Origin: a virus
Lineage: Duplodnaviria > Heunggongvirae > Uroviricota > Caudoviricetes
IMG/VR virus record: IMGVR_UViG_3300029610_000357
Span: 52,285 to 116,284 of that record
Length of the DNA: 64,000 nt
Reading direction: 5' to 3' (one strand)
Both the position numbers and the translations under genes were made by a program. Below are positions 3,358-46,323 of this stretch, one piece after another. The notes under the pieces are model-generated. The model saw only the letters and a program-made list of their open reading frames with translations, ran no database searches and was not told the DNA's origin. Numbering within the stretch: position 1 is the stretch's first letter; each line of letters opens with the position of its first letter.

Positions 3358-3571
3358 ATAACGAATATGTATTTACCTCTCATACGTACACACTGGCGAG
3401 ACAATACATATTTCTAAAAAGCAACAGTGTGTAAGTATTGCTTTTCTAGGGCGAACTGAAGTGATGAACTCCATCAGAATATCAGAAGAGGTATACATTC
3501 CAATATCCACCAACCATCAGGGTGTTCGCATATTTTTTGGTTAATCTATCGTATAGTTACTAACCTAATCA

Positions 3572-3655
3572 TCCCTGTTGAGGGAATCGAACCCACTCGT
3601 GACCGAAGCCGCAAAATTTACAGTTTTGCCTGTCTCCTTAGCAGTATAAACAGGG
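3572..3655 (-). tRNA. tRNA-Tyr (anticodon GUA), long variable arm
   Basis: The anticodon stem is CAAAA/TTTTG with loop CTGTAAA, and the T-arm is GTGGG-TTCGATT-CCCTC. The acceptor is CCCTGTT/AACAGGG. The D-arm pairing is irregular, so the exact ends are approximate. Confidence 0.55.
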
Positions 3656-3694
3656 ATATTAGCCCACAAGTCCGAAGAACATTGTAGGACAAAC

Positions 3695-3769
3695 ATCACA
3701 CCAACGAGAGTCGAACTCGTATTGCATCCGTGAAAGGGATGTGTCCTAAAACCATTTAGACGATGGTGC
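3695..3769 (-). tRNA. tRNA-Glu (anticodon UUC)
   Basis: The layout CGCACCA-TC-GTC-TAAATGGTTTTAG-GAC-A-CATCC-CTTTCAC-GGATG-CAAT-ACGAG-TTCGACT-CTCGT-TGGTGTG-A mirrors a canonical bacterial tRNA-Glu. Confidence 0.85.
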
Positions 3770-3775
3770 GATTTA

Positions 3776-3869
3776 GCGTACGGACTGGGCTACGACCCCA
3801 GGATACACATGTTCGTATGTATACAGGATTAGCAATCCTGCGCATTAAACCAGCTCTGCCACCCGTACA
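3776..3869 (-). tRNA. tRNA-Ser (anticodon GCU), long variable arm
   Basis: The acceptor is GTACGGG/TCCGTAC. The D-stem is a 3-bp GCA/TGC stem, the anticodon stem is CAGGA/TCCTG with loop TTGCTAA, and a 22-nt variable hairpin (TATACAT...ATGTGTAT) precedes the T-arm CTGGG-GTCGTAG-CCCAG. Confidence 0.8.
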
Positions 3870-4920: not shown

Positions 4921-5015
4921 CTTATATCCTTCCTTTCATATATCACTATTTTACCACCCCTTCAAAACACTAGGTTTTACCTAGGTTTCTGAGGGGTATT
5001 TAATGTGGTAATTCT
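4921..5015 (-). repeat. copy A of a roughly 95-nt repeated module (hairpin + extended -10-like TGGTAAAAT + SD in minus sense)
   Basis: Copy A is about 80% identical to copy B. The two hairpin arms differ by compensatory changes (CCCCT...AGGGG in A, CCCTGAA...TTCAGGG in B). Confidence 0.6.
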
Positions 5016-5108: not shown

Positions 5109-5203
5109 CCTTATCCTTCCTTCCATATATCACTATTTTACCACCCCCTGAAGAACGTAGGCAGAACCTAGCGTTTTCAGGGTCAATTAATGTGGTAATT
5201 CTT
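5109..5203 (-). repeat. copy B of the roughly 95-nt repeated module
   Basis: Copy B shares CATATATCACTATTTTACCACCCC at the 5' end and ATTAATGTGGTAATTCT at the 3' end with copy A, and the central hairpin co-varies. Confidence 0.6.
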
Positions 5204-16234: not shown

Positions 16235-16675
16235 ATGGAAATTATAATTATTGCAAGTGCACTTTTTGGGATTATGACCGGATGGGTGTTAGGATACTCA
16301 ATTAAAGAAGCTGAGGTAAAAGATACAAAGAACTTAGTCGATAATCTGAACAAGTTAACCAGCAAAATAACCGAAGTCGAAAAGGAACTGGCAGAAACCA
16401 AAAAGGAAAGAGATTACGAAAAAAGCATGAACATTCATTGGTTCAATGAATATGAAAGAATACGAGAAAAACATTATAGAGAAATGTCAAAACTCCGCCA
16501 GCAAACGGACTTTTTCGCAGCTGATGGAATAGACAAGTTTGTGGAAATGCGAAAACTAAAAAGCAAATGTTCAGAAGCTGTCAAGTATGCTATGAAAATG
16601 TCTCATCCAGACAACAATGGAAACGCCGAAGACTTTATGAAGTTCAGAAAGCTTTATAAAGAAATAACAGAATAG
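16235..16675 (+). CDS. membrane-anchored J-domain (HPD motif) protein
   Basis: There is an N-terminal transmembrane helix, then a coiled coil. The C-terminus AVKYAMKMSHPDNNGNAEDFMKFRKLYKEI matches J-domain helix II, the HPD loop and helix III. A paralog lies at 40360. Confidence 0.55.
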   Translation: MEIIIIASALFGIMTGWVLGYSIKEAEVKDTKNLVDNLNKLTSKITEVEKELAETKKERDYEKSMNIHWFNEYERIREKHYREMSKLRQQTDFFAADGIDKFVEMRKLKSKCSEAVKYAMKMSHPDNNGNAEDFMKFRKLYKEITE

Positions 16676-19220: not shown

Positions 19221-19544
19221 GTGAGGATGGAAGAGAAAAGAGAAGTATGCTTCGATGATTGCGAAGTTGGCATGTTTTTTAGGATTGATAAAGACTGTCC
19301 ATGGATGTATGACAATGAGTGGATGGATGGTTTTGATACATTGACAAACGCAGATGAGTTAAAAGTTAAAATTATCGATAAAGATGCTGATGATAGCAGT
19401 GTTGAGATAGAATTTTGGGCAGATGGTCAAAAGACAGATATAACAGATTGGCTCTATCAGTTTGAAGACGATCCAGAAGACAGAATTGGAAATAACCTTG
19501 AGTTTATATTAAAGAGGAAAAATAGAAAAAATAACTATTGGTGA
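19221..19544 (+). CDS. tail-family member 7 (DDCEVGMFF type; ends NRKNNYW)
   Basis: Carries the conserved tail. Confidence 0.6.
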   Translation: MRMEEKREVCFDDCEVGMFFRIDKDCPWMYDNEWMDGFDTLTNADELKVKIIDKDADDSSVEIEFWADGQKTDITDWLYQFEDDPEDRIGNNLEFILKRKNRKNNYW

Positions 19545-19554
19545 GGTGGTGTAA

Positions 19555-19815
19555 ATGGATAATGAATTAAAAATTGGAATGAAGTTCTTAGAAGTAAAAA
19601 CCGGAATTGTCTGGAAGCTTACAGATATGAATTTTATACAAGAAGGGTTTTATATAATAGACAAATCATTGTGTTTTCAAGCTGTACGTATAAATACAGA
19701 CGAGGATGATGTATGGAGAAGTACATCGTCAATGATACCTAAGACAATGCTCGAAAGAAGATTGAAAAAAGGCGAATGGAAACAAATAAACAATAGAAAA
19801 AACAATTACTATTGA
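19555..19815 (+). CDS. tail-family member 8 (ends NNRKNNYY)
   Basis: Carries the conserved tail. Confidence 0.6.
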   Translation: MDNELKIGMKFLEVKTGIVWKLTDMNFIQEGFYIIDKSLCFQAVRINTDEDDVWRSTSSMIPKTMLERRLKKGEWKQINNRKNNYY

Positions 19816-19837: not shown

Positions 19838-20977
19838 ATGGAGGATTTAAGATTAGTAACAACAGAAGAATTTAATGGAGTTGATTGCAACTTTTACAAG
19901 GCAGATAGTAACATGTGGATGACCAGAGGGCAGATTGGTAAAGCTTTAGGATATCACAACCCAAGGATTGCAATCGGGAAAATACATACTGCACATAGAG
20001 ATAGACTTGATCCACTTTCAGTTGATACCAATTTAGGGTCTACTGATGGAAAAGAATATTCTACTTATATATATAATGAAAGAGGCATCTTTGAAATCTG
20101 TAGATGGTCGAGACAGCCAAAAGCAAATGAATTTATGGATTGGGTATGGGACATTATAGAAGCTTACAGACATGGAGAATTCCAGAGAAAGCCTAGGGAA
20201 ACAGCCATTACACCTGTTGAGAAATTCTTAGATGGAATGCAGAATATGTTCTTAGAAATGAGAGAAGAGAACAAAATATTCAAAGATACTGTGTTGAAGA
20301 TTTTAGAATCTCAGCAAGGACAGGAAGTACAAAAACCTGTTGAAAAACTTGAAGCTCAAGAGAAAACTGTTAATCAAGTAAAAACAAAAGCAGCTGTTAA
20401 GCCAGTTGTTAAGATTGAAAACCCTAGATTAGACACTTGGAAGTTCGAAATTGGTACTAAAGCAGCTTATATTGTTTTTAATGGAAATGAATATAAAACA
20501 AAAGGAAAAGTATTCTCAGCATGTTATTCAAAAATGAAGAATGTGTATGGAATTTGTTGGTCACAGGAAAATAAAGAATACAGAAGAGCTTTCGGATTAG
20601 AATCTCAGAGAGGTAGATTAAGTACTTTAGATGTTGTATTCAATGATGAAAATTTGAAAGACCTGTTTGACAGTATTCTTGATGGAATATATGAAAACAC
20701 AAAAAGAAAAGCTATAAAGAAAAATACGGGAACCAATCCAGAAAAAGATTGGCAATATTATAAAGAAAAGATTCAAAAACTTTGTGAGCAAACAGGCAAC
20801 AAAAGTTTAGGCGGAAGCTCTATTTACTCAGGAATCATTAGAAAGATGGATGTAGACTGGAGCAAGTATGAAACAAACAAAAAGAAAACTGAATTAGTTA
20901 GAAAGTATCCAGAGTTATTTGCAGAGTTCTCTAAGACAGCGGATAAATATTTAGAGGAGAAGTTAAATGAGTATTAA
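19838..20977 (+). CDS. Bro-N domain antirepressor-like protein
   Basis: The N-terminus EEFNGVDCNFYKADSNMWMTRGQIGKALGY is the Bro-N / ORF6N signature. The gene has no tail and sits inside the array. Confidence 0.6.
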   Translation: MEDLRLVTTEEFNGVDCNFYKADSNMWMTRGQIGKALGYHNPRIAIGKIHTAHRDRLDPLSVDTNLGSTDGKEYSTYIYNERGIFEICRWSRQPKANEFMDWVWDIIEAYRHGEFQRKPRETAITPVEKFLDGMQNMFLEMREENKIFKDTVLKILESQQGQEVQKPVEKLEAQEKTVNQVKTKAAVKPVVKIENPRLDTWKFEIGTKAAYIVFNGNEYKTKGKVFSACYSKMKNVYGICWSQENKEYRRAFGLESQRGRLSTLDVVFNDENLKDLFDSILDGIYENTKRKAIKKNTGTNPEKDWQYYKEKIQKLCEQTGNKSLGGSSIYSGIIRKMDVDWSKYETNKKKTELVRKYPELFAEFSKTADKYLEEKLNEY

Positions 20978-21086
20978 AATTTTAGGGCTTCGTCAAGATT
21001 GCTACAAAGTAATCATTGATGGAGTCCTTTTTAAATTCCCAACAGAACAAGAGTTTTTGGAATTCTTAGAGGAGATTGAGATATGA
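20967..21086 (+). CDS. small hypothetical protein (39 aa)
   Basis: GGAGGAG precedes the start. Its start overlaps the upstream stop and its stop overlaps the next start (ATGA). Confidence 0.3.
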   Translation: MSIKILGLRQDCYKVIIDGVLFKFPTEQEFLEFLEEIEI

Positions 21087-21361
21087 GTTTTAGATTTGAA
21101 GTAGGTCAAGAGTTGGAATTACACAATAACTTGACGGATATGAAAGTTTACATGAGATCGGGAACGGTTGTTCGTATCTTAAGTAGAAAAACAAGAATGG
21201 ATCATACACAAGAGGTTGAGAGAAATCGTTACAAGATTGCATATGAATTTCATACAAATTTTTTGAAAATTGGAGATGGTTGTTGCCACTCTGGAAAAGA
21301 CTTTGTCTGGGAAGAAGATTTAATTAGAGCTGTCGGTCAACGGAAAAATAATTATTATTGA
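21083..21361 (+). CDS. tail-family member 9 (ends GQRKNNYY)
   Basis: Carries the conserved tail. Confidence 0.6.
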   Translation: MSFRFEVGQELELHNNLTDMKVYMRSGTVVRILSRKTRMDHTQEVERNRYKIAYEFHTNFLKIGDGCCHSGKDFVWEEDLIRAVGQRKNNYY

Positions 21362-21364
21362 GAG

Positions 21365-21643
21365 GTGATTAAAATGTGGAAAGTTGGAGATAGAGTCGTA
21401 ATTATTCAAGATACTAGGAGACCTTTAAAATCCTTTGTAGGCTTTAAAGGAACTGTTAACTTTGTAGAAGAGGATGGGATAGGTGTAGCTTTTGACAAAT
21501 ATGTAAACGGTCATATGTTAGGAGGGAGTTGCCAAGACGGTCATGGATGGTATTTGTCCACAGACGGAGAGAACGAAAACGAAGCCGAAGCAAATGGAGT
21601 AAGAGTCAAGAAAATTAACAACAGAAAAAATAATTATTGGTAG
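21365..21643 (+). CDS. tail-family member 10 (MWKVGDRVVII; ends NNRKNNYW)
   Basis: Carries the conserved tail. Confidence 0.6.
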   Translation: MIKMWKVGDRVVIIQDTRRPLKSFVGFKGTVNFVEEDGIGVAFDKYVNGHMLGGSCQDGHGWYLSTDGENENEAEANGVRVKKINNRKNNYW

Positions 21644-21925
21644 GTGATAGGAATGTGGGAAAAAGGTACAAGGGTTAGAATTATAAAATCAAATAGATCT
21701 ACAACACCAGTTGGTATCATAGGTACTGTGGTTTACATACGTAAGGATAAAAACGATCGTTTTATAGTAGAGTTTGACGAACCCATGGATGGGAATACCT
21801 TAACTGTTCTTTGTGATTGCAAACCGAACTGCTGGTGGTGGTTTGATAATGTTCCGGGGAGAGTTGTTGAAACAGATGGTATAACAATTGAAAAAATAGG
21901 AAAAAGAAAAAACAATTATTACTAA
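21644..21925 (+). CDS. tail-family member 11 (MWEKGTRVRII; ends GKRKNNYY)
   Basis: Carries the conserved tail. Confidence 0.6.
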   Translation: MIGMWEKGTRVRIIKSNRSTTPVGIIGTVVYIRKDKNDRFIVEFDEPMDGNTLTVLCDCKPNCWWWFDNVPGRVVETDGITIEKIGKRKNNYY

Positions 21926-21936
21926 GGTGGTGAGAA

Positions 21937-22249
21937 TATGTGGGAGATTGGAGATAGAGTGGCTGTTACAGACTTGGGCAAAGCCTCACAAGAGGATTTT
22001 GGAGTTGAAATAAAGGTTGGATACAAAGGAACTATTATCAACTTTTTAAAGGTTGCTGCCCCATGAAGTCCTGATGAGATAATTAAATTCTTAGTAGAGT
22101 TTGACGAATCCATGGGTGGACATAGTGGAAATGGAGCTTATGAAGGAAAGCGGGGACATTGTTGGTGGTTTGATTATTGTTTAGAAAAGGTTACTATCAC
22201 AGATGGCATAAGCATTGAGCAAGTCAAAAGGAAAAATAATTTTTACTAA
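21937..22249 (+). pseudogene. decayed tail-family member 12 (MWEIGDRV...KRKNNFY) with a 1-nt frameshift and an in-frame TGA
   Basis: MWEIGDRV reads in frame 0. The paralog-like continuation AVTDLGKASQEDFGVEIKVGYKGT needs a +1 shift at the GTGGG run near 21960. That frame then hits TGA at 22064 before continuing to KRKNNFY-TAA at 22247. Confidence 0.55.
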
Positions 22250-22252
22250 GGG

Positions 22253-22495
22253 GTGATTAAAATGTGGGAAGTAGGTGACAGAGTAGTAGTTACTCGTGGA
22301 ATTAAAGCTAGTAGCGTATTTGAGACTAAAGCGAAAGGGACAGTCATTGCTATAGATGCGGAATTTACAATACCCGTATTGGTTGAAATAGATGGAACAG
22401 GAACAAGTATGTGGTTCTATGAAAATGGTGATGATTTAATCTGGGGCGGCATTACTTGCACACGAGCAAAAAAGAGAAAAAACAATTATTATTGA
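22253..22495 (+). CDS. tail-family member 13 (MWEVGDRVVVT; ends KKRKNNYY)
   Basis: Carries the conserved tail. Confidence 0.6.
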   Translation: MIKMWEVGDRVVVTRGIKASSVFETKAKGTVIAIDAEFTIPVLVEIDGTGTSMWFYENGDDLIWGGITCTRAKKRKNNYY

Positions 22496-22511
22496 GAAAG
22501 GATGATGACAG

Positions 22512-22799
22512 GTGTTTAAGGTTGGAGATAGGATCGTATTAACAGAAGAAAGCCGCCAACATTGCAATATATTTGATGAACATCCGGGAGATATCGCAAC
22601 GGTTATTAGAGTTTCGCAAGTAACGAATGAACATGGTTATGAATGTGTTTTAGAATTTGATAAACATATTGGTGGACATGATGGATTAATCGATGCTAGA
22701 GGCAAGAACGGTCATTGTGTTATCTATTATTTTTGTTCAACACAGTGGGATAAGTATTTTAGGAAAATCCAAACCAAACGTAAGAATAACTATTATTGA
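22512..22799 (+). CDS. tail-family member 14 (GTG start; FKVGDRIVL; ends TKRKNNYY)
   Basis: Carries the conserved tail. Confidence 0.55.
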   Translation: MFKVGDRIVLTEESRQHCNIFDEHPGDIATVIRVSQVTNEHGYECVLEFDKHIGGHDGLIDARGKNGHCVIYYFCSTQWDKYFRKIQTKRKNNYY

Positions 22800-22814
22800 G
22801 AAAGAGGTGATCGT

Positions 22815-23132
22815 ATGCCAGAGGATGTAAAGTACCGTCCAGTTCCTAAAGGATATAAAGGTGTTTTTAGACTAAGAAAAGATATAATATCCTTAAACAA
22901 TGAATTTTATGGGGCATGGGGCATTATAGACGACAAATTTTTAATCGATGAAGATTATTATAATGAAGAAAATGAATTTAAGGGAGATCCTAGTCATGTA
23001 ATTCGAGCAAGTTTTTACCCTAGCCTTTTAGATCTGCAAAGAGGTGAAAATCTTATTAGAGAAGTAGGAAGAGTGTCTGGGACAGAAAAGTGTTGTTATA
23101 TTCCTTTTAAAAGAAAAAATAATTACTATTAA
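22815..23132 (+). CDS. tail-family member 15 (KYRPVPKGYKG type; ends KRKNNYY)
   Basis: It is a paralog of member 16. Carries the conserved tail. Confidence 0.6.
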   Translation: MPEDVKYRPVPKGYKGVFRLRKDIISLNNEFYGAWGIIDDKFLIDEDYYNEENEFKGDPSHVIRASFYPSLLDLQRGENLIREVGRVSGTEKCCYIPFKRKNNYY

Positions 23133-23147
23133 GAAAGAGGTGATCAA

Positions 23148-23462
23148 ATGGAGAATGATGGTAAATATCCTCCAGTACCTAAAGGATACAAGGGTATTTT
23201 TAGAGTTAGACCTGATATGATAGAGTCAAATAATGTGTTCTATGGAGCATATGGTATTACAGGAAAAGGTATTATAGAAGACAGTGATTATTTAGAAGAC
23301 CAAGGAGAATTTACAGGAAATCCACATCATATAATTAAAGCCATTTTTTATCAAACCTATGAAGACTTAAAGAGCAGAGAATGTATGATACAGGGAAGGC
23401 CTGTTAAAATAAGAGAATGCTTGCTTTATCCAGTATCCAACAAGAAGAACAATTACTGGTAG
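23148..23462 (+). CDS. tail-family member 16 (KYPPVPKGYKG type; ends NKKNNYW)
   Basis: Carries the conserved tail. Confidence 0.6.
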   Translation: MENDGKYPPVPKGYKGIFRVRPDMIESNNVFYGAYGITGKGIIEDSDYLEDQGEFTGNPHHIIKAIFYQTYEDLKSRECMIQGRPVKIRECLLYPVSNKKNNYW

Positions 23463-23472
23463 GTGGTTTAAG

Positions 23473-23742
23473 ATGATAGAAGCAAAAGATATTAAAGAGG
23501 GTATGAAAATTAAGTATGAAGGCTGGGAATGGACTATAACAAAAGTGTTTGCAAAATATAATAATGTCTTGGATCTTCGGAATGGTTATACTAAAAAAAT
23601 CATTGATCAAGATAGTTCATTGATTTGGATTGAAGCATCGAAGAGACGCTTTGTGCCTGAATCAATGACTATGGAATGGTTCTTTAAAGAACTGAAATAT
23701 GGAACAATAAAGATTTTAAATCGTAAAAATAATTATTATTGA
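23473..23742 (+). CDS. tail-family member 17 (ends NRKNNYY)
   Basis: Carries the conserved tail. Confidence 0.6.
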   Translation: MIEAKDIKEGMKIKYEGWEWTITKVFAKYNNVLDLRNGYTKKIIDQDSSLIWIEASKRRFVPESMTMEWFFKELKYGTIKILNRKNNYY

Positions 23743-23748
23743 GGTGAT

Positions 23749-24039
23749 ATGATGTATTTAGAAGACATTAAAGTTGGTCAGAGAGTGAATTATCGAGGTC
23801 ATTCCTATACAATAACTAAAAATGTTGTAAAGCGATGGAAAACAATAAGCCCCCATTCCTTATATTCATACATTAAGATAAGTACAAATTATTATAGATC
23901 ACGAATGTATTTCCAAAGAGTGGAAGACAAAAGTGAATCAGTTGACGGATTTTGGTTATTATATGACGAGATTGAAGAAAAAATGGATCGAGGGCTTATT
24001 AAATTTTTGAACATGTCAAAGAAAAATAATTATTATTAA
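23749..24039 (+). CDS. tail-family member 18 (ends SKKNNYY)
   Basis: Carries the conserved tail. It is the last member, immediately before the RT. Confidence 0.6.
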   Translation: MMYLEDIKVGQRVNYRGHSYTITKNVVKRWKTISPHSLYSYIKISTNYYRSRMYFQRVEDKSESVDGFWLLYDEIEEKMDRGLIKFLNMSKKNNYY

Positions 24040-24054
24040 AGAGGGTGTTACAAA

Positions 24055-25347
24055 GTGAACGAGATCAATAAAAGGAAATTAGAACTGTTCATGGATGATC
24101 AGCTATGGAGACAAAATATCACACATCAGCAAAGCAAAGGTGTACATAGAGATGTATTAAGAATTGTATGTGATCCAGAATACAAAGCACGGCTTTTAGG
24201 AATGATCTGGGATGGTAATTACAAAATTGCACCTCCGTATGTAGTAGAAATTCCTAAAGACAATGGAAAAGTAAGAGAAGTGTATGTTAATCAGCCAATT
24301 GACAGATTTGTTATGACACAAATCAATTATGTTTATATGCAATTATATGGTCATATGATTCATCCAAGATGTGTGTCTTATCAGAAAGGAATTGGAGTTA
24401 AAAATATCGTAGATGATATTTGTATGGAGCTTAAGAAACATCAAGGAGCTGTTGGGTATAAGGTAGACATTAGTAAGTATTTTGACAGTGTAAGCCGTGA
24501 GGTACTTAATGAAATGATTGATAAAATTGATACAGGAAGTCCTATTGATCAGATTGTAAGAGATTATTATATGGATGATTGTATCATTGATCAGAAAAGA
24601 AATGTTATTGAGAAATACAAAAGTATGACTCAAGGTTGTGCAGTGTCTACATTCTTTGCCAATTGTGTTTTAAGAGATGTAGACGAAGAGTTAAGCAAGA
24701 TGGATATTATTTATTACAGATATTCAGATGATATCTTGATGGTTGGTAAGGATGCAGATAAGGCTTTGAAGATGTTAGGAGAGATGTTAGAAACAAAAGG
24801 ACTTACATTAAATCCCAAAAAGGTAGAAACAGTCAGTACAGATCAATGGTTTACATTCTTAGGAGTGCGAATTAATGGACAGAAGAGAAGTTTTTCTGAA
24901 AAGAGCTTAAAGGAATTTCAGAAACACATTAGAGAATATGTAAATAAGAAAGCAGGAATTGGTAGCGTAAAAGTTGCAATCAGACAAATTAATAAATATC
25001 TGTATTTGAATTTCTTAAGGAATCCGAATGAGTTTGGTTGGGCTGAGTATTTCTTTAGTATTGTGAATGTCGAAGATGATATTAAGACATTAGATATGTG
25101 GATTAAAGATACACTCAGAGGTTTGTATACTGGTAAGAGAAAGGTTGGTGGTCTTGGTGTAAATAAAGTAACTGATGAATGTGGAGTATTAAGAGGGAAA
25201 GGAAAAAACGTAAGTGCAAATCTTGGTAAAACAAGAAGCGATAAAGACATTTTAGAAGAAGCAGGATATATCAGCATGAATGAAATGTATCATCAGTTTA
25301 GATACAGTAAAGAATTGTACAGGGCTTCATTGACGGCTTTATCTTAA
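24055..25347 (+). CDS. reverse transcriptase (orphan RT domain plus a roughly 120-aa C-terminal extension; class unassigned)
   Basis: The RT motifs are readable in order. Motifs 1-2 read PKDNGKVREVYVNQPIDRFV. Motif A is YKVDISKYFDSV, B' is QGCAVSTFFANCVL and C is YYRYSDDILMVG. The region LTLNPKKVE then follows, and after it FLGVRI. GTG start with an AGAGGGTG Shine-Dalgarno sequence. Confidence 0.8.
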   Translation: MNEINKRKLELFMDDQLWRQNITHQQSKGVHRDVLRIVCDPEYKARLLGMIWDGNYKIAPPYVVEIPKDNGKVREVYVNQPIDRFVMTQINYVYMQLYGHMIHPRCVSYQKGIGVKNIVDDICMELKKHQGAVGYKVDISKYFDSVSREVLNEMIDKIDTGSPIDQIVRDYYMDDCIIDQKRNVIEKYKSMTQGCAVSTFFANCVLRDVDEELSKMDIIYYRYSDDILMVGKDADKALKMLGEMLETKGLTLNPKKVETVSTDQWFTFLGVRINGQKRSFSEKSLKEFQKHIREYVNKKAGIGSVKVAIRQINKYLYLNFLRNPNEFGWAEYFFSIVNVEDDIKTLDMWIKDTLRGLYTGKRKVGGLGVNKVTDECGVLRGKGKNVSANLGKTRSDKDILEEAGYISMNEMYHQFRYSKELYRASLTALS

Positions 25348-25472
25348 GTCAAACCTAACACGAGGTACTTATGTGAGATGTTATAAGTCAAATTAGATCA
25401 CTAGGAAGCTCTGGTGATTCCATGCATGGTTGATAACCAGCATTCCATCACCACTTCTTCCCAGATCTTATC

Positions 25473-25493
25473 ATCATAAAGGGAATTTAGAAA
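25473..25493 (+). promoter_or_regulatory. conserved motif instance 0 (ATCATAAAgggaATTTAGAAA)
   Basis: It follows the imperfect hairpin GGTGATTCCATGC...GCATTCCATCACC. Confidence 0.4.
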
Positions 25494-25632
25494 CGTGTTA
25501 TTAACATGAACATAAGAAAGTTACTATGGACGTTGTATGTGAGACAATGGAATTACATATAAGGCGCGTTGAAGCTGCAGGATGACTGGCAATACATTGA
25601 CCAAGTCATCCCTGCAGCTCAACCGCTTTATA

Positions 25633-25652
25633 ATCATAAAAGAATAAAGGAA
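25633..25652 (+). promoter_or_regulatory. conserved motif instance 1 (ATCATAAAagaATAAAGGAA)
   Basis: It follows the 56-nt near-perfect hairpin at 25568-25623. Confidence 0.45.
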
Positions 25653-25807
25653 CATAGCATTATTGTGAGCATACAAACAAGCTAACATGGGCTAAACATA
25701 CGAGACGTTGAATCATACATAATAAGGGCACAGCTGCCTTATGCAGCGGGAAATTAGTCTCCTCGACAATAATTTCACCGCTGCCACAGGCGTGCGTGCC
25801 CTTATTA

Positions 25808-25827
25808 ATCATAAACCAATAGAGAAA
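25808..25827 (+). promoter_or_regulatory. conserved motif instance 2 (ATCATAAAccaATAGAGAAA), 35 nt upstream of the gene at 25865
   Basis: It follows the hairpin at 25725-25800. Confidence 0.5.
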
Positions 25828-25864
25828 ACATGTCGCCAATGTAGAGTATGTAGAAAGGAAAATC

Positions 25865-26401
25865 ATGAAAAGTTTATTTAAAGTATTGTATGAGCTGTCA
25901 CAAGGAAATACCTTAATGATTAATAGTTGCATGTCTTTTAGAATGACAACTGATCTATACAAAAGACAAGTGAGATTTAAGAAGTATAAGGTTGTTGATC
26001 AAGGAAGCGTAGTAAGTGATGTGACATTGTGTAGTGGAGAAGTTATTGAGTATGATGACTTAATAAAGGAAGGAGATTTAGATTTTATATTGCCAACTGA
26101 ATTAAATGAAAAAGAAAATCCATATGAGGTTATTGAATACCTGTATGGATTATTTTATTGCTCAGTTCCTGATAGATCTGCTGTTCAAAAGAAACAAAAT
26201 TTTATAGCAAAAGGATTAAATGATTTTGGGGCAAATGATTTTACAGGAATGAGAAGAAGTGAAATTCAGCCATTGTTAGAGCTCTATGTGTTACTCGCTG
26301 GAATGAAAGGATGGATCACTTGGAAAGATGATAAGTTGTTCTTTTGGAAAGGTGGACATAAGAGTTTGTATATATATAGAAAATGGATTTTAGGTTATTA
26401 G
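25865..26401 (+). CDS. hypothetical protein
   Basis: A 178-aa ORF preceded by AAAGGAAAA. Confidence 0.5.
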   Translation: MKSLFKVLYELSQGNTLMINSCMSFRMTTDLYKRQVRFKKYKVVDQGSVVSDVTLCSGEVIEYDDLIKEGDLDFILPTELNEKENPYEVIEYLYGLFYCSVPDRSAVQKKQNFIAKGLNDFGANDFTGMRRSEIQPLLELYVLLAGMKGWITWKDDKLFFWKGGHKSLYIYRKWILGY

Positions 26402-27180
26402 GAAAGGAAGAATGTAAAATGAATGTAGAAAAGAGTTTAGAAAAAGCAGGAGTAGACACAAAGAAATATCCTTCATTAGCTATGCAGAATATTTTAGGAT
26501 ATCAAGGGAAAGCGTTTGCAGAAAATTCATACCTGTATAAAAAGATTATGGAAGATGGACATGTGTTTAATCCTTATATACACAGAAGATGGCTTCCATA
26601 TCAGTTTATGAATGCTGTCCATTGGACAAGACGGTATTATGTAGAGACTATTGGTTATGTAAAGATGCTTGAAAAAGAATTGATGCGTGGCAATAATGTA
26701 GATAATTGGAAATATATGTACGATAAATTTGGAAAAGAGCTTAATGCTTTATATACACTCTCAAAAAGAGATAAAAAAGCGTATAAAGAAAGATGGGCTG
26801 CTTTTGGAAGGTTAGAAATTTTGAATTATTTTTCTCAAGGGTTTGATTGTATAGGGATAAATCAGAATACATTCTTGGAAATGAAAAATTTATTAGCGGA
26901 TGAAAGATTTGAAGCTGAACGATATTGGCGATATACTAATTGTTTATTGTATAAACAGTCACAATTTAGAAAAGATTTGGTAACAACAACTTTCCATTCA
27001 GGAATTTATTTTACATTAAAACACATTATGATGTTTGATTATGACAAATTACATATGTCTTCATCCCAAAAAGAAAGCCTAAAACGAATTAGAGAAGACT
27101 TAATTAATGGAGATTTCAATTATGAGCAGGCTTTTACAATTATTGAAGATTACGTAGCAAGATATTACAATCCAAGATAG
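26383..27180 (+). CDS. hypothetical protein
   Basis: A 265-aa ORF that overlaps the upstream gene. Confidence 0.5.
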   Translation: MDFRLLGKEECKMNVEKSLEKAGVDTKKYPSLAMQNILGYQGKAFAENSYLYKKIMEDGHVFNPYIHRRWLPYQFMNAVHWTRRYYVETIGYVKMLEKELMRGNNVDNWKYMYDKFGKELNALYTLSKRDKKAYKERWAAFGRLEILNYFSQGFDCIGINQNTFLEMKNLLADERFEAERYWRYTNCLLYKQSQFRKDLVTTTFHSGIYFTLKHIMMFDYDKLHMSSSQKESLKRIREDLINGDFNYEQAFTIIEDYVARYYNPR

Positions 27181-27193
27181 AGAGGGGAATTAT

Positions 27194-27691
27194 ATGCCAG
27201 AAGAAGTAAAGAAATTAACTATTAAAGAAGCAGATGAGTTTATTAAAAAGAAAGTAATCGGAGTTCTCATAAAAGCAGATGTAACAATAATAGTAAATGA
27301 ATTAGAAGCTATTTATGGAGATTCGTTAGCAAATGGAACGGTTGGAGATTCGTTTTATATTTATAACTGTCCAGAAAATTATGATGAATCAGATTATGAA
27401 GAGCTTGAGTATATTGACTATGATGATATGTGTGAAGATGATATTCGTGAAGAGAGAGCTGAAGCAGGAGATTTCAATCTTAAAGTATATAAGTGGTTCA
27501 TTGTTGATCCAAGATTTACAGAATTATTAAAAGATTTAGGAGAGATAGTTGCTCCAGATATTAACCTTTGGGGATGTTGTGAAGACATTGAAGACGCAAG
27601 CGAAGCAACTGTAATTGAAGAATTTTTTGAGAGAATGCAGATTCTGTATGGACAAAAGAATGCAATTATTACAGAAAAATTGAGTGCCTAA
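27194..27691 (+). CDS. highly acidic hypothetical protein
   Basis: The translation is Asp/Glu-rich throughout. GAGGGGAA precedes the start. Confidence 0.5.
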   Translation: MPEEVKKLTIKEADEFIKKKVIGVLIKADVTIIVNELEAIYGDSLANGTVGDSFYIYNCPENYDESDYEELEYIDYDDMCEDDIREERAEAGDFNLKVYKWFIVDPRFTELLKDLGEIVAPDINLWGCCEDIEDASEATVIEEFFERMQILYGQKNAIITEKLSA

Positions 27692-27851
27692 ACCAACAAA
27701 AGGGAGATGTACCCTTTGTAGAAATACTTATCATCAACCATCAAAGAAGGAGGATCTTCAGAACCCTCCGCATTGATTACGCTAAACATCACTTCGTAAT
27801 GATTTAGCAGCATCAACTGCGAGAGGAGTTCATGAAGATCCTCCTTCTTGA

Positions 27852-27871
27852 ATCATAAATACATAGAGGAA
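27852..27871 (+). promoter_or_regulatory. conserved motif instance 3 (ATCATAAAtacATAGAGGAA)
   Basis: It follows the roughly 100-nt nested hairpin at 27746-27847. Confidence 0.45.
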
Positions 27872-28068
27872 TACATCGAAGATAAGTTGTTCTACATTTT
27901 TTTTGCAAGAGATATACTTGCTGATTTAATGAATTGTGTTTGAATCACTCACATAATCAGGAGAAAGGAGGCATAATCTCATCTCCTTCACTGGCAAGCC
28001 AGGAAGGACTTGATGAGATTACACTCCGCTGCGGCGTCATTGTGCCTCCATACTCCTGATCATGTTTG

Positions 28069-28088
28069 ATCATAAACCAATAGAGAAA
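28069..28088 (+). promoter_or_regulatory. conserved motif instance 4 (ATCATAAAccaATAGAGAAA), 62 nt upstream of the gene at 28150
   Basis: It follows the roughly 100-nt nested hairpin at 27958-28058. Confidence 0.5.
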
Positions 28089-28149
28089 TATATCACCTCA
28101 CAATGAGTTAAATCTGTAACTATTAATTTACATAGAAAAGGAGAAACAG

Positions 28150-28722
28150 ATGAAAGCGATTTTTAAAGGAGAAACGGTTGTAAGAACTAAATTAACATTA
28201 GATACTGGGCTTGAGAAATTAGATGGATCTGATGTTAGGTATTTTGTAAGAGAGCCTAAACTGATACATGAGTGTACGAATGAAGATTGGGGGATTGTGT
28301 TAGAAAAAGATCTTTCATTCAATAAGATTATGCTTATTAATTCTTATATCGATGAAGTAGTTTTAGATGGAATTACACTTGAGTTTCCAGATATTGTATA
28401 TCTTAATCTTGAAGAAGATAAAGTAATTTTTGAAGTTGGTGGTTCTTATACAATTAAAGATAAAGACGAGGAAGAGAAAATTGAAACATACCACAAGCTT
28501 ATGGAAGCTTACAATAAGCAAGTAAGAACTAGAGAAGAGAACGAAGATGATTGCTGTGGTTGTGGATTCTGCTCAAAAGAGGGTGACTTCTCTGGAGAGG
28601 AATATGATGAAATAAAAGGGTTCAATGAAGAGGACATTGAAAAGAAAGCAATGGATGATCTAGATGATCTAAATGAAATTCTTACAGCATTCTTTGGGGA
28701 TGTTCCGGGATTCAAGTGTTAG
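28150..28722 (+). CDS. acidic hypothetical protein with a C-terminal CCGCGFC cluster
   Basis: A 190-aa ORF preceded by AAAGGAGAAA. Confidence 0.5.
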   Translation: MKAIFKGETVVRTKLTLDTGLEKLDGSDVRYFVREPKLIHECTNEDWGIVLEKDLSFNKIMLINSYIDEVVLDGITLEFPDIVYLNLEEDKVIFEVGGSYTIKDKDEEEKIETYHKLMEAYNKQVRTREENEDDCCGCGFCSKEGDFSGEEYDEIKGFNEEDIEKKAMDDLDDLNEILTAFFGDVPGFKC

Positions 28723-28807: not shown

Positions 28808-29596
28808 ATGGCAACAGAGTTTGACAAACGAATGAAAGCTTATGAATGTGTCTCAAGACAGTACTTAACAAGAAGAGTACCAGTTGCGATCAGAGTAGAT
28901 GGAAAGGCATTTCATACATTCACTAGAGGGTTTCAGAAACCGTTCGATGAAGTGCTTAGCAATGCAATGCAGGCCACAATGATGAAAATGTGTAGACAGA
29001 TTCAAGGTTGTGTGTTTGCTTACACACAGAGTGATGAAATTACATTTATTCTTATCGATTATCAGAAGCTAAATTCTGATGGCTGGTTTAACTACCGTAC
29101 TGATAAGATGTGTAGCATTGCAGCGAGTATGGCTACTATGGAGTTCAATAAGGTATTTAGTGCTTTTGTTTATGGATTTAAGGTAAACAAGGGAGAAGAC
29201 ATATCAAGTGAAGATATGGAAGTGCTTAAAGCCTATGAGAAATCTAAAGAACGTGGAGCTATGTTTGATGCTAGAGCATTTTCAATTCCAAAAGAAGAAG
29301 TTACGAATCTAATTTATTGGAGACAGCAAGACGCTATGAGGAATGCAGTTCAGATGGTTGGACAAGCATTTTATTCCCACAAAGAGCTTCAGGGTGTTAA
29401 TTGTGAGATGCTTAAAGAAATGTTACTGGCTGATAAGGGAATTGATTGGGATAAGATTCCTGTGAAATATCAGAGAGGTAGCTGTTGTGTCAAGGTTGAT
29501 GGTGAATGGACTATTGACAATAACATTTCTATCTTCAGAGGTAGTGACAGAGAGCAAATTGATAAGCTTGTGTTTGTTGAGAGTGAAGAGAACTGA
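28808..29596 (+). CDS. Thg1-like protein (tRNA-His guanylyltransferase family, 3'-5' nucleotidyltransferase)
   Basis: The N-terminus YLTRRVPVAIRVDGKAFHTFTRGFQKPFDEVLSNAMQATMMKM...AYTQSDEITFIL follows the Thg1 pattern (VRxDGxxFHxFS...KPND...GQSDE). Confidence 0.65.
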   Translation: MATEFDKRMKAYECVSRQYLTRRVPVAIRVDGKAFHTFTRGFQKPFDEVLSNAMQATMMKMCRQIQGCVFAYTQSDEITFILIDYQKLNSDGWFNYRTDKMCSIAASMATMEFNKVFSAFVYGFKVNKGEDISSEDMEVLKAYEKSKERGAMFDARAFSIPKEEVTNLIYWRQQDAMRNAVQMVGQAFYSHKELQGVNCEMLKEMLLADKGIDWDKIPVKYQRGSCCVKVDGEWTIDNNISIFRGSDREQIDKLVFVESEEN

Positions 29597-32481: not shown

Positions 32482-32631
32482 GGGGACATAGCTTAATAGG
32501 TAAAGCAAAACTATATTTTTCCATAAAGAACTTAAAACTAAAATTTTCATATTAAATATAAACATTTTGTACCTCCCTATTGTAATAAAATAACACTTAT
32601 ATTTATGTGGGTTCGAGTCCCACTGTCCCCA
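32482..32631 (+). other. interrupted tRNA-like element: intact acceptor, D-arm and T-arm, separated by about 75 extra AT-rich nt
   Basis: The 5' end GGGGACA-TA-GCTTAATAGGTAAAGC and the 3' end GTGGG-TTCGAGT-CCCAC-TGTCCCC-A give a perfect 7-bp acceptor. About 100 nt sit where a roughly 22-nt anticodon arm is expected, and no anticodon stem is evident. Confidence 0.35.
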
Positions 32632-40359: not shown

Positions 40360-40794
40360 ATGAGCTCATTAGATGTTATTTATTTCCTAGTACTGCTCGG
40401 TACGGGATTTGTCTTAGGTTGGGGTTTTCATCTTATTAAAACAGAAAATGAGATGGAAGCAGATATAGGAGATATAGAAGATATAGAAGAACAATACGAA
40501 AGAAAACTTGAATATGCAGAGTATGAAATATCCACATTAAGACGAGAAAATCATAAATTACAAATTCGTGTAAGTGTTTTAAGGGATGATATCATAGCGC
40601 TTAAAACAGAAAGACTCGCAGATATCCAACGACATAAAACATTTGTGGAGGAAACAAAGAAATGGAAGTCTAAACAAATGTCGCCAGAAGTTAAAGAAGT
40701 GGTTAAATATGCTATGAAATCAGCGCATCCTGACAATGGTGGAGATGTAAAAGATTTTATGAAGTTTAGAGAGCTGTATAACAAGATTAAGTAA
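40360..40794 (+). CDS. membrane-anchored J-domain (HPD) protein, paralog of the 16235 gene
   Basis: An N-terminal transmembrane helix, a coiled coil, and the C-terminus VKYAMKSAHPDNGGDVKDFMKFRELYNKI. Confidence 0.55.
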   Translation: MSSLDVIYFLVLLGTGFVLGWGFHLIKTENEMEADIGDIEDIEEQYERKLEYAEYEISTLRRENHKLQIRVSVLRDDIIALKTERLADIQRHKTFVEETKKWKSKQMSPEVKEVVKYAMKSAHPDNGGDVKDFMKFRELYNKIK

Positions 40795-40928
40795 ATACAT
40801 AAAGAAACTAATCGAGTATCAGATTTAGGATACAAGGCAGTATTAATCACATAGAGATACGAAGACCCCGGCGACTGGAATCTACCACAGGAAACATTCC
40901 AAGTCGCCAGTCTTCGTATGGCTCTAAG

Positions 40929-40949
40929 ATCATAAATGAAATAAAGCAA
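40929..40949 (+). promoter_or_regulatory. conserved motif instance 5 (ATCATAAAtgaaATAAAGCAA)
   Basis: It follows the 63-nt GC-rich hairpin at 40857-40919, and a compressed motif-like copy (ATTAATCACATAGAGATAC) sits just before that hairpin. It lies about 50 nt upstream of the AAA+ gene. Confidence 0.45.
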
Positions 40950-40997
40950 GATACTATACTGATGAGTATTCTATTTAAAAGAAAAGGAGATTACATA

Positions 40998-45472: not shown

Positions 45473-45528
45473 AATCATTATAAATTATATGGTAAGATAA
45501 GAAAAGATATATAGAAAGTTGGTGGAAC

Positions 45529-46323
45529 ATGATTATTACAGAGACCAATAATGAAACAATTGTAGAAAATTTGAAAAAGCTTCTTGAATACAGGGTTGGG
45601 TTGACAAAGTATTTAAGAAAAATAGTTAGTAATTTTGATATAGACTTGGTTAGATTGTCACAAATTGTATCAGGTCAGGTTAAGCTAAATGAAATAACAT
45701 TATATGAATATTATGCAATTTGTTGGGGATTCATAGCTTTTAATAAAGAAAGACATAACTTTTTTAAGACTATTGATCTAAAAGAAGCGACTATTGATTT
45801 AAGTTCAAAAACAATAAAGATTTCTCACCATGTAGAAAAGAATAGAATATTAGAGGTTGTGCCTCAAAAGTATTACACAATCAGATCTTCTATTAAAGAA
45901 TTAAATATGTTGACTCATAATGGACTGATAAAAGAAACAGATGTTATAAAACAAACATTGATATCTCATGATGGTAGATCAGGGTCTTTAGGTTATGGAA
46001 GCAAACGTAGCATAGATGAAATCAGGAATATGATACTAAAGGGAACATATTGGAGTGTTCCAATCACCATAGGCACAATTAAGAATGACATCAAAATAGA
46101 AAATGGTGATTTGGTAATTGCCGGAACCTATGAAATAATAGATGGATACCATACTTTCATGGCATTTAAGGGAATCAGCGAAGAAAAGGATTTTCCAGTA
46201 ATATTAAATGTAGTAAAGCTAGAAGATCAGAATGAAATGGAAAGCATCATTCTTCAAATGGATCATAAAAATACTGTTTGGAAAAATAGTTATGCAAAGA
46301 AAGGGGATTCCTATGGAGAATAA
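45529..46323 (+). CDS. hypothetical protein (possible DGQHR/ParB-like motif IIDGYHTF)
   Basis: The family hint is weak. Confidence 0.4.
   Translation: MIITETNNETIVENLKKLLEYRVGLTKYLRKIVSNFDIDLVRLSQIVSGQVKLNEITLYEYYAICWGFIAFNKERHNFFKTIDLKEATIDLSSKTIKISHHVEKNRILEVVPQKYYTIRSSIKELNMLTHNGLIKETDVIKQTLISHDGRSGSLGYGSKRSIDEIRNMILKGTYWSVPITIGTIKNDIKIENGDLVIAGTYEIIDGYHTFMAFKGISEEKDFPVILNVVKLEDQNEMESIILQMDHKNTVWKNSYAKKGDSYGE

What the first reader, a model, noticed from the sequence alone, without database searches (positions are those of the whole stretch)
24055..25860. Orphan RT at the 3' end of the array, followed by three tandem hairpin-plus-motif modules
The RT has canonical motifs 1-7 (YKVDISKYFDSV, QGCAVSTFFANCVL, YYRYSDDILMVG) plus a roughly 120-aa C-terminal extension. 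It has no endonuclease or maturase domain and no obvious template/variable repeat pair. By eye it is not clearly a retron, group II intron, DGR or Abi type.

Immediately downstream, 500 nt of non-coding DNA hold three units. Each unit is a different long inverted repeat, followed 5-10 nt later by the conserved motif ATCATAAA, 3-4 nt, ATAGAGAAA. The hairpins are:
- 25440-25470 (imperfect);
- 25568-25623, with about 22 bp of near-perfect stem;
- 25725-25800.

These could be RT-associated structured RNAs (template or primer RNAs, like retron msr-msd). They could also be a tandem promoter/terminator set. In both cases the tandem arrangement right after an RT is unusual.
Basis: partly seen in the sequence, partly recalled or inferred. 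Interest (0 to 1): 0.8.

Follow-up and report, generated by a model that had tools for sequence, protein, structure and literature searches.

The report
Phage UG27 reverse transcriptase with template-RNA array
This is a phage copy of the recently described UG27 system: a reverse transcriptase, two helper proteins and a set of folded RNA units whose hairpins are copied into short DNA hairpins, so it is a rediscovery, not a new kind of element.

Summary
The ORF at 24055-25347 is an intact reverse transcriptase (RT), and three hairpin-plus-motif modules follow it.

The RT is neither orphan nor unclassifiable. It matches the UG27 profile (UG/Abi class 2) over its full length, E=3e-168. The next two genes match the curated UG27 partner families: 25865-26401 hits RTas346 and 26383-27180 hits RTas337. 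Both co-occur with UG27 RTs in about 88 other loci.

Each "module" is the core of a 155-204-nt ncRNA unit. The order of elements is pseudoknot arm, two closing helices, AAUYA, a long variable hairpin, AUCAUAAA..UANAG, then the matching 3' arms. This is the architecture published for UG27 arrays (Mestre 2022; Li et al., bioRxiv, Sept 2026). In that work the hairpin is reverse transcribed from the AUC into a 50-100-nt ssDNA hairpin, and all three proteins are required.

The window holds six, arranged 3+2+1, with the extras at 27706-27895, 27911-28114 and 40815-40973.

Promoter/terminator, retron, DGR and group II intron readings are not supported.

Among 96-99% identical phages, the unit-1 hairpin is the variation hotspot but stays paired.

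The biological role is still unknown. Verdict: a new member of a known kind, of moderate-to-low interest.

The parts
24055..25347 (+). UG27 reverse transcriptase (430 aa, YSDD active site)
   Evidence: PADLOC RT_UG27 E=3.2e-168, profile positions 2-419 of 420. Pfam RVT_1. It carries all invariant residues of a 24-sequence UG27 alignment. There are 1481 homologs at E<=1e-20.
25356..25516 (+). ncRNA unit U1. Elements: PK5' 25356-62; P1 25368-74/25510-16; P2 25378-83/25502-07; AAUUA 25391-95; central hairpin 25395-25468; AUC motif 25473-90; PK3' 25494-25500.
   Evidence: Its hairpin has 9 alleles among 11 near-identical phages, and all keep 21-28 bp.
25524..25678 (+). ncRNA unit U2. Elements: PK 25524-28/25653-57; P1 25532-39/25670-78; P2 25544-48/25662-66; AAUUA 25551-55; hairpin 25558-25632; AUC motif 25633-49.
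   Evidence: The hairpin is almost invariant among relatives, 1.3% variable columns.
25685..25851 (+). ncRNA unit U3. Elements: PK 25685-89/25829-33; P1 25696-701/25846-51; P2 25705-10/25837-42; AAUCA 25711-15; hairpin 25720-25807; AUC motif 25808-24.
25865..26401 (+). Small accessory protein (sORF; Mestre cluster 346), 178 aa
   Evidence: PADLOC RTas346 E=2.4e-13. Homologs lie in 88 loci, on the RT strand and next to the large accessory gene; none lies in the 33 non-UG27 RT loci. No Pfam or PHROG family.
26383..27180 (+). Large accessory protein (bORF; Mestre cluster 337), 265 aa, all-alpha from about residue 70
   Evidence: PADLOC RTas337 E=5.1e-10. Homologs in 87 loci. 269 family representatives in the 1.8-billion-protein library. 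AF2 pLDDT 75. No fold relative found.
Elements: PK 27706-11/27872-77; P1 27718-23/27890-95; P2 27727-32/27881-86; hairpin 27741-27851; AUC motif 27852-68.
   Evidence: (z=-11.1). Conserved in relatives.
Elements: PK 27911-16/28089-94; P1 27923-29/28108-14; P2 27933-38/28099-104; hairpin 27951-28065; AUC motif 28069-85.
   Evidence: Compensatory changes are seen in relatives.
40815..40973 (+). Solitary ncRNA unit U6, about 15.5 kb downstream of the RT stop codon. Elements: PK 40815-20/40950-55; P1 40826-33/40966-73; P2 40838-43/40956-61; AAUCA 40845-49; 75-nt hairpin; AUC motif 40929-46.
   Evidence: Identical in three other IMG/VR contigs.

Best explanation
The locus is a phage-borne UG27 reverse-transcriptase system. 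It consists of the RT (24055-25347), a small accessory protein (25865-26401), a large accessory protein (26383-27180) and six ncRNA units on the same strand. Three units lie between the RT and the small accessory gene, two lie after the next gene, and one lies about 15.5 kb downstream of the RT.

Each unit folds into two closing helices plus a pseudoknot. These present a long, sequence-variable central hairpin between two short conserved motifs: AAUYA on the 5' side and AUCAUAAA-N3-5-UANAG on the 3' side.

By homology with five UG27 systems tested in E. coli, the three proteins act together. The RT starts cDNA synthesis at the AUC, copies the central hairpin and stops at the 5' motif. This should release one short single-stranded DNA hairpin per unit (about 84-125 nt here).

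Status of each step:
- Shown here: family membership of all three proteins, and the number, strand, architecture and conservation of the units.
- Shown elsewhere for homologs: cDNA synthesis, its start and stop sites, and the requirement for all three proteins.
- Inferred: that this locus does the same, and that the units are co-transcribed with the flanking genes.
- Unknown: what the DNA hairpins do. My best guess, at low confidence, is that they are protein-binding ligands or decoys used by the phage against a host factor. Hairpin sequence or shape would set specificity. I base this on two observations. The hairpins have no complementary target in the window. One hairpin is the local variation hotspot yet stays paired.
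For: - RT: PADLOC RT_UG27 E=3.2e-168 over the full length. The next best hits are UG26 at 6e-51 and retron RTs at about 1e-16. The YSDD motif is intact.
- Accessory genes: RTas346 at 2.4e-13 and RTas337 at 5.1e-10. These are the two clusters that Mestre 2022 associates with UG27. Iterated HMMs find both, adjacent and co-oriented, in 86-88 of the loci examined. They are absent from the 33 loci with other RTs.
- Units: six motif hits against 0.17 expected, all on the + strand. A profile search finds only these six at E<0.01. Folding z-scores are -9.6 and -11.1.
- Closing helices: cognate 5'/3' flanks pair at -15.9 kcal/mol against -9.3 for non-cognate flanks, permutation p<1e-4.
- Pseudoknot: -6.06 against -3.97 kcal/mol, p<5e-5.
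- Same helix topology in distant loci: 52 units from Bacteroidota-type UG27 loci show covariation for it. Paired cells are 86.6% against 64% in shuffles, the covariation score is 0.60 against 0.21, and slid controls give 29-48%.
- Motif arrays in other loci: AUC-N7-9-UANAG copies spaced 150-190 nt fill the RT-to-accessory-gene gap on the RT strand. For example, Bacteroides phage BS-TP1 has 8 copies.
- Published mechanism.
- Close relatives keep the structures while the U1 hairpin sequence changes.
Against: - No expression or cDNA data exist for this phage.
- The 3' motif spacer is 9-10 nt here against the published N7. The 5' motif reads AAUYA, not UUYA.
- A covariance model I built from Bacteroidota-type units did not detect the window's units (best 4.3 bits, E about 5). 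The RNA homology therefore rests on shared topology, short motifs and genomic position, not on a significant model score. The published models were not available to me.
- Units U4-U6 lie outside the canonical RT-accessory gap, and their use by the RT in trans is untested.
- The proposed biological role is speculation.
Confidence: 0.9

Rival explanations
1. The hairpins are transcription signals (a tandem set of intrinsic terminators, attenuators or promoters) separating the RT from downstream genes, and not RT templates.
For: They are long stable stem-loops in intergenic DNA between co-directional genes.
Against: The consensus scan finds no + strand terminator-like site in 20800-28200. Promoter-like sites are at chance level, 39 against 35.7+/-6. 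No U-tract follows any hairpin; each is followed by AUCAUAAA. The stems are 21-45 bp, far longer than terminators. The outer helices and pseudoknot, and the linkage to UG27 RTs across dozens of loci, are unexplained by this reading.
Confidence: 0.03
2. It is a retron: the RT makes branched msDNA from an msr-msd RNA, primed from a 2'-OH of a conserved guanosine.
For: The output is functionally similar, a short ssDNA hairpin copied from a structured ncRNA next to the RT. There are weak RT similarities to retron RTs: NCBIfam retron_St85 at 72.9 bits, and PDB retron Ec86 RT at E about 5e-6.
Against: The retron profiles score far below UG27 (1e-16 against 3e-168) and below NCBIfam's cut-off (72.9 against 235). 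The RNA lies downstream of the RT and comes as six units, not one msr-msd upstream. The partner proteins are the UG27-specific clusters, not retron effectors. Rfam retron or other families give no match in the region.
Confidence: 0.03
3. It is a diversity-generating retroelement or a group II intron remnant.
For: The closest solved structures and the best NCBIfam hit are group II intron RT/maturases (E=1e-29; TIGR04416 at 121.5 bits). The U1 hairpin is hypervariable.
Against: TIGR04416 scores well below its cut-off of 300. Rfam finds no group II intron RNA in the window. There is no template/variable repeat pair; the only long direct repeats are paralogous small genes. The U1 substitutions are not adenine-specific and are compensatory within a stem.
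Confidence: 0.01
4. It is a UG27 locus that is decayed or inactive in this phage, with the units persisting as relics.
For: No direct activity data. The motif spacing differs from the published consensus.
Against: All three ORFs are intact and conserved. The RT keeps every family-invariant residue. The unit scaffolds are more conserved than the neighbouring coding DNA among relatives (3-8% variable columns against 11.6% for the RT gene). The hairpins retain pairing through compensatory change.
Confidence: 0.04

Closest known systems
UG27 reverse-transcriptase systems. First described as a class 2 UG/Abi RT of gut phages with clusters 337/346 and a downstream ncRNA (Mestre et al., NAR 2022, PMC9226505). 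The ncRNA arrays templating cDNA hairpins are from Li et al., bioRxiv 10.64898/2026.09.22.753630, Sept 2026.
   Same: - Full-length RT profile match.
- Both accessory protein families.
- Gene order RT, RNA array, small ORF, large ORF.
- Units of about 155-200 nt on the RT strand.
- A central variable hairpin bracketed by an AUC...UANAG motif and a UYA-type motif.
- A closing helix plus a pseudoknot.
- Extra units in neighbouring intergenic regions.
- Location in a phage.
   Different: - The spacer between AUC and UANAG is 9-10 nt, not 7.
- The 5' motif is AAUYA, not UUYA.
- The unit sequences are too diverged for a model built from Bacteroidota-type units to find them.
- Only three units lie in the canonical gap. 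Two more sit behind an unrelated gene, and one is solitary about 15.5 kb downstream of the RT.
Retrons (msr-msd ncRNA and msDNA)
   Same: An RT copies a hairpin-forming part of an adjacent structured ncRNA into a short ssDNA hairpin. The ends of the RNA unit pair with each other.
   Different: The RT clade and the partner proteins are different. There are several template units per RT, placed downstream. There is no evidence for 2'-5' branch priming. The system is phage-encoded and is not a host defence island gene.
DRT2 (UG2) and DRT9 (UG28), class 2 UG/Abi RTs with ncRNA templates
   Same: The same RT superfamily, and dependence on a dedicated structured ncRNA encoded beside the RT.
   Different: Those RTs make long concatemeric or homopolymeric cDNA from one upstream ncRNA, and they defend bacteria against phage. 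UG27 makes short discrete hairpins from many units, needs two extra proteins and is carried by phages. The profile scores here are much weaker: Drt9 at 1.5e-28 and Drt2 at 1.2e-16.
Group II intron RT/maturases
   Same: They are the closest solved structures by sequence (7uim, E=1e-29). They share the fingers-palm region plus a thumb/X-like region.
   Different: There is no intron RNA and no DNA-binding or endonuclease domain. The score is far below the family cut-off.

Membership tests
UG27 RT system | RT belongs to the UG27 group of UG/Abi RTs | tested here: met
   PADLOC RT_UG27 at 558 bits, E=3.2e-168, profile positions 2-419 of 420. The runner-up is UG26 at 171 bits.
UG27 RT system | Catalytic YSDD motif (the mutated site in the published inactive controls) | tested here: met
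   YYRYSDDILMVG at aa 220-231. Y223, S224, D225 and D226 are invariant in alignment A1.
UG27 RT system | Small accessory protein (cluster 346 / sORF) encoded with the RT | tested here: met
   The ORF at 25865-26401 matches PADLOC RTas346, E=2.4e-13. Homologs are present in 88 loci.
UG27 RT system | Large accessory protein (cluster 337 / bORF) encoded with the RT | tested here: met
   The ORF at 26383-27180 matches PADLOC RTas337, E=5.1e-10. Homologs are present in 87 loci, directly after the small ORF.
UG27 RT system | Long intergenic region holding an array of roughly 135-170-nt structured units on the RT strand | tested here: met
   Three units of 155-167 nt fill 25348-25864. Two more (190 and 204 nt) fill 27692-28149, and one of 159 nt lies at 40815-40973.
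UG27 RT system | Conserved AUC...UANAG motif directly 3' of the central hairpin (published consensus AUC-N7-UANAG) | tested here: met
   The AUC and a UANAG-type pentamer are present in all six units (UUUAG in U1). The spacer is 9-10 nt, not 7. The same longer form occurs in the nearest relatives L024, L025, L028 and L093.
UG27 RT system | UUYA motif on the 5' side of the central hairpin (cDNA stop site) | tested here: inconclusive
   The window has AAUUA (U1, U2), AAUCA (U3, U5, U6) and CAUCA (U4) at the equivalent place. The UYA core is kept, but the first U is replaced by A.
UG27 RT system | Helix closing the base of each unit, plus a pseudoknot | tested here: met
   Cognate against non-cognate flank pairing gives p<1e-4 for P1+P2 and p<5e-5 for the pseudoknot. 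The same topology covaries in 52 Bacteroidota-type units.
UG27 RT system | Units detected by a UG27 ncRNA covariance model | tested here: not met
   This was tested only with my own model R1, built from Bacteroidota-type units. The best window unit scored 4.3 bits, E about 5. The published models, including the second clade-specific one, were not available. The authors themselves report clades beyond their model's reach.
UG27 RT system | Encoded in a phage or prophage | tested here: met
   Near-identical loci lie on 70-134-kb IMG/VR viral contigs. The window carries Bro-N and P22-antirepressor-like genes and a tRNA cluster.
UG27 RT system | RT-dependent 50-100-nt ssDNA hairpins copied from the central hairpins; all three proteins required | not testable with these tools
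   This needs strand-specific DNA sequencing. The predicted products of U1-U4 and U6 are about 84-118 nt and fold as DNA hairpins of -17 to -36 kcal/mol. For U5 I set the template start too far upstream (142 nt as computed, about 125 nt expected).
Retron | RT of the retron clade | tested here: not met
   Best retron profile E=1e-16, against 3e-168 for UG27. NCBIfam retron_St85 scores 72.9 bits against a cut-off of 235.
Retron | Single msr-msd ncRNA upstream of the RT, with a branching guanosine | tested here: not met
   The RNA units are downstream and multiple. Branch priming itself cannot be tested here.
Diversity-generating retroelement | Template repeat / variable repeat pair with adenine-specific differences | tested here: not met
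   No such repeat pair exists in 64 kb. The U1 variation is not A-specific.
Group II intron | RT/maturase above the family cut-off, inside a ribozyme with domains I-VI | tested here: not met
   TIGR04416 scores 121.5 bits against a cut-off of 300. There is no intron RNA family in the Rfam scan.

The most novel reading that the evidence does not exclude
The central hairpins are exchangeable specificity cassettes under diversifying selection. Near-identical phages carry different unit-1 hairpin alleles while the scaffold and the other units stay fixed. The units are also spread over three separate intergenic sites, so different DNA hairpins could be made from different transcripts at different times of infection. 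On this reading the cDNA hairpins would be phage counter-defence or regulatory ligands whose shape or sequence tracks a variable host target.
Probability: 0.2. Interest if true: 0.7.

Novelty: new member of a known kind. Interest (0 to 1): 0.35.

Why it matters
UG27 is one of the few reverse transcriptases carried by phages, as opposed to RTs used by bacteria against them. What its DNA hairpins do is still unknown.

This locus adds a well-delimited example from a Clostridia-type gut phage lineage, with several useful properties:
- A variant motif spacing.
- Units dispersed beyond the canonical gap, including a solitary unit about 15.5 kb downstream of the RT.
- A set of near-identical natural variants in which one hairpin changes rapidly while staying paired.

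That natural allele series is a ready-made handle for asking whether hairpin sequence or hairpin shape matters.

It does not reveal a new class.

Tried and rejected
1. Covariance model R1, built from 52 Bacteroidota-type units and run over the window with filters off, found none of the six units. The best was U1 at 4.3 bits. It gave only local-end artefacts, such as 62015-62089 at 20 bits, which lacks both hairpin and AUC motif.
2. MAFFT could not put the window's units into structural register, so no clade-specific model was built. I used cognate/non-cognate duplex tests in its place.
3. An nhmmer profile of the window's 3' motif gave no significant hit in 1.13 Mb of other loci. It gave only sub-threshold hits, about 50-60-fold enriched in RT-to-accessory gaps.
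4. Rfam has no family in the unit regions.
5. Megablast of 23000-27000 against GenBank phages gave no match.
6. The AlphaFold2 model of the small accessory protein was unusable, pLDDT 38.6.
8. Searching the six template hairpins against the rest of the window gave only 12-13-nt matches at E=0.1-0.4, which is chance level.
9. A search for DGR-type repeats found only paralogous small genes.
10. The promoter/terminator scan was at chance level.
11. The ORF at 27194-27691 and the ..RKNNYY gene array were considered as system components. Both were rejected because they occur only in this phage lineage.
12. Thg1-like gene linkage was seen in only one other locus, L093.
Full report
**Observation**

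Pfam places RVT_1 at aa 66-273 and gives a weak maturase/thumb-like match at aa 286-359.

The 517-nt stretch that follows (25348-25864) folds much better than shuffled sequence: MFE -162.6 kcal/mol, z=-9.6. It contains three long hairpins. Their true extents are 25395-25468, 25558-25632 and 25720-25807. Each is followed within 0-5 nt by ATCATAAA-N3-4-(A)T(A/T)NAG(A/G)AA.

**Classification of the RT**

Against PADLOC the protein matches RT_UG27 over its whole length (558 bits, E=3.2e-168). The next best models are far weaker: UG26 at 171 bits, Drt9 at 98 bits and retron RTs at about 59 bits. NCBIfam's group II intron, retron, Drt2, Drt3a and Drt4 models all score far below their cut-offs. The nearest solved structures are group II intron RTs and the DRT9 RT; no UG27 structure exists. 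The family is large, with 1481 homologs at E<=1e-20. The window's protein carries every invariant residue of a 24-sequence alignment.

**What is known about UG27**

Mestre et al. 2022 (PMC9226505) defined UG27 as a class 2 UG/Abi RT.
- It is not enriched in defence islands.
- It is encoded mainly in gut phages of Bacteroidetes and Firmicutes.
- It is associated with two domain-less protein clusters (337 and 346).
- It is followed by an intergenic region with a predicted ncRNA.

Li et al. (bioRxiv 10.64898/2026.09.22.753630, dated 2026-09-24) showed several further points.
- This region is a variable array of roughly 150-nt units.
- The units are structurally conserved but diverse in sequence, with a basal helix, a pseudoknot and short motifs bracketing a central hairpin.
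- In five systems expressed in E. coli, the RT makes 50-100-nt ssDNA hairpins.
- Synthesis starts at the AUC of AUCNNNNNNNUANAG and ends after a UUYA motif.
- It requires the RT active site and both accessory proteins.
- The biological role is unknown, and no complementary targets were found.

**Partner genes**

The two ORFs after the array have no Pfam or PHROG family. They do match PADLOC's RT-associated models. The ORF at 25865-26401 hits RTas346 (E=2.4e-13), and the ORF at 26383-27180 hits RTas337 (E=5.1e-10).

I fetched 79 IMG/VR loci and 40 genome loci with an RT alignment and iterated HMMs of the two ORFs over all six-frame ORFs. Both proteins occur, adjacent and on the RT strand, in 86-88 loci.
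- These include Bacteroides phage BS-TP1, where the RT is mis-annotated as a tail protein.
- They are absent from all 33 loci that hold other kinds of RT.
- In a few loci the pair lies upstream of the RT, as the preprint also notes.
- The third downstream ORF (27194-27691) occurs only in this phage's close relatives and is not part of the system.

**RNA units**

They lie at 25473, 25633, 25808, 27852, 28069 and 40929, all on the + strand, against 0.17 expected by chance. The gap 27692-28149 folds with z=-11.1. A profile of the motif region finds only these six at E<0.01 in the window.

All six share one layout. From 5' to 3' the elements are:
- a 5-7-nt pseudoknot arm;
- helix P1 (6-9 bp);
- a 2-4-nt internal loop;
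- helix P2 (5-6 bp);
- AAUYA;
- a central hairpin of 74-115 nt;
- AUCAUAAA..UANAG;
- 3-4 nt;
- the other pseudoknot arm;
- P2';
- P1'.

The helix sequences differ between units but stay complementary within each unit. The pseudoknot pairs, for example, are UAACACG/CGUGUUA, CUAUG/CAUAG, ACAUG/CAUGU, GAUGUA/UACAUC, GAUAUA/UAUAUC and AGUAUC/GAUACU.

To guard against picking complementarity by eye in AU-rich sequence, I compared cognate with non-cognate flank pairings. I used automatically cut flanks of 17 (or 15) units from the window and its nearest relatives.
- P1+P2: -15.9 against -9.3 kcal/mol, permutation p<1e-4.
- Pseudoknot: -6.06 against -3.97 kcal/mol, p<5e-5.

In 52 units from distant, Bacteroidota-type UG27 loci, the same topology is supported by covariation. 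This covers the pseudoknot GCACA/UGUGC, P1, P2 and the hairpin base. Paired cells are 86.6% against 64% in shuffles and 29-48% when partners are slid.

Arrays of AUC-N7-9-UANAG spaced 150-190 nt fill the RT-to-accessory gap on the RT strand in most loci. They are essentially absent from the opposite strand.

**Differences from the published consensus**

In this clade the AUC-to-UANAG spacer is 9-10 nt, not 7, and the 5' motif is AAUYA, not UUYA. A covariance model that I built from the Bacteroidota-type units did not detect the window's units. The authors report that some clades escape their model as well. The RNA-level assignment thus rests on topology, short motifs, strand, position and the protein context, not on a significant model score.

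**Variation among relatives**

Ten IMG/VR contigs are 96-99.6% identical over the locus. Fractions of variable alignment columns:

| Region | Variable columns |
|---|---|
| RT gene | 11.6% |
| Unit scaffolds | 3-10% |
| U2 hairpin | 1.3% |
| U3 hairpin | 11% |
| U1 hairpin | 32.5% |

The U1 hairpin has nine alleles in eleven genomes, and all keep 21-28 base pairs through compensatory changes. U4 and U5 are conserved, with a few compensatory changes. U6 is identical in three other contigs. The substitutions are not adenine-specific.

**Rivals**

- Promoter/terminator set: no + strand terminator-like site, no U-tracts, and promoters at chance level.
- Retron, DGR and group II intron: each fails a defining feature.
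- Targets: the template hairpins have no complementary site elsewhere in the 64-kb window beyond chance 12-13-mers. This agrees with the preprint.

**Accessory protein structure**

The small protein could not be modelled (pLDDT 38.6). The large one is an all-alpha protein from about residue 70 (pLDDT 75). It has a strongly conserved but low-confidence N-terminal segment, DG.VFNPY.HRRWLP.QF. It has no informative fold match.

**Mechanism**

The mechanism I commit to is as follows. The units are transcribed with the flanking + strand genes. Each folds into the closed, pseudoknotted scaffold. The RT with its two partners docks on the conserved internal-loop motifs, initiates at the AUC, copies the central hairpin and stops at the AAUYA side. 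This gives six different ssDNA hairpins. The products of U1-U4 and U6 are predicted at 84-118 nt and fold at -17 to -36 kcal/mol. For U5 I placed the template start too far upstream, so the computed 142 nt should be about 125 nt.

cDNA synthesis is shown only for homologs, and its occurrence here is inferred. The downstream role is unknown. I favour, at low confidence, a protein-binding or decoy function in phage-host conflict.

**Verdict**

This is a genuine and correctly noticed feature, but it belongs to a system already described: a new member of a known kind. The points of residual interest are the variant motif spacing, the 3+2+1 dispersal of units including a solitary distant one, and the hypervariable yet paired unit-1 hairpin.

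Noticed in passing
window 2594-3205 (-), within tRNA cluster 2262-3868 (-): A full-length ROOL RNA (Rfam RF03087, 306 bits) sits inside a cluster of seven phage tRNA genes (Thr, Gln, Trp, Arg, Tyr, Glu, Ser).
   Followed up: no
window 19221-19815 and 21083-24039 (+); junction repeats also at 17283 and 17620: At least 13 small tandem ORFs have products that all end in ..[KR][KR]NN[YF][YW]. Conserved junction DNA (AGAAAAAATAATTATTA.. plus RBS and start codon) joins them. The array occurs only in this phage lineage, not in other UG27 loci. It is the most variable stretch among 96-99% identical relatives, with 49% variable columns.
   Followed up: partly
window 28808-29596 (+): A Thg1-like (tRNA-His guanylyltransferase family, 3'-5' polymerase) gene lies about 700 nt downstream of unit U5 (Pfam E=7.8e-32). 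A homolog also lies about 1 kb after the UG27 genes in locus L093 (a Christensenella MAG), but not in other loci.
   Followed up: partly
window 32482-32631 (+): Rfam calls a tRNA spanning 150 nt (42.5 bits) that ARAGORN does not report. It may be an intron-containing or otherwise interrupted tRNA.
   Followed up: no
window 4925-5015 and 5112-5202: A 91-nt direct repeat (80% identity) lies in a gene-poor stretch near the tRNA/ROOL region (family D4).
   Followed up: no
window 16573-16659 and 40695-40781 (+): Two paralogous ORF segments encode an HPD-containing stretch that looks J-domain-like by eye (75% DNA identity; Pfam found no family for the second ORF). That second ORF (40360-40794) ends 21 nt before the solitary UG27 unit U6.
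   Followed up: no
L012 5986-7248 (GenBank PQ571274.1, Bacteroides phage BS-TP1 gp79): The deposited annotation 'tail protein' is wrong. The gene is a UG27 RT (38% identical to the window's RT). It is followed by a 1349-nt gap with eight motif copies and then by the two accessory genes, gp80 and gp82.
   Followed up: yes
window 45473-46231 and 61259-61665: Two further long ORF-free gaps (759 and 407 nt) contain no UG27 unit by motif, profile or hairpin scan. They were not examined otherwise.
   Followed up: partly
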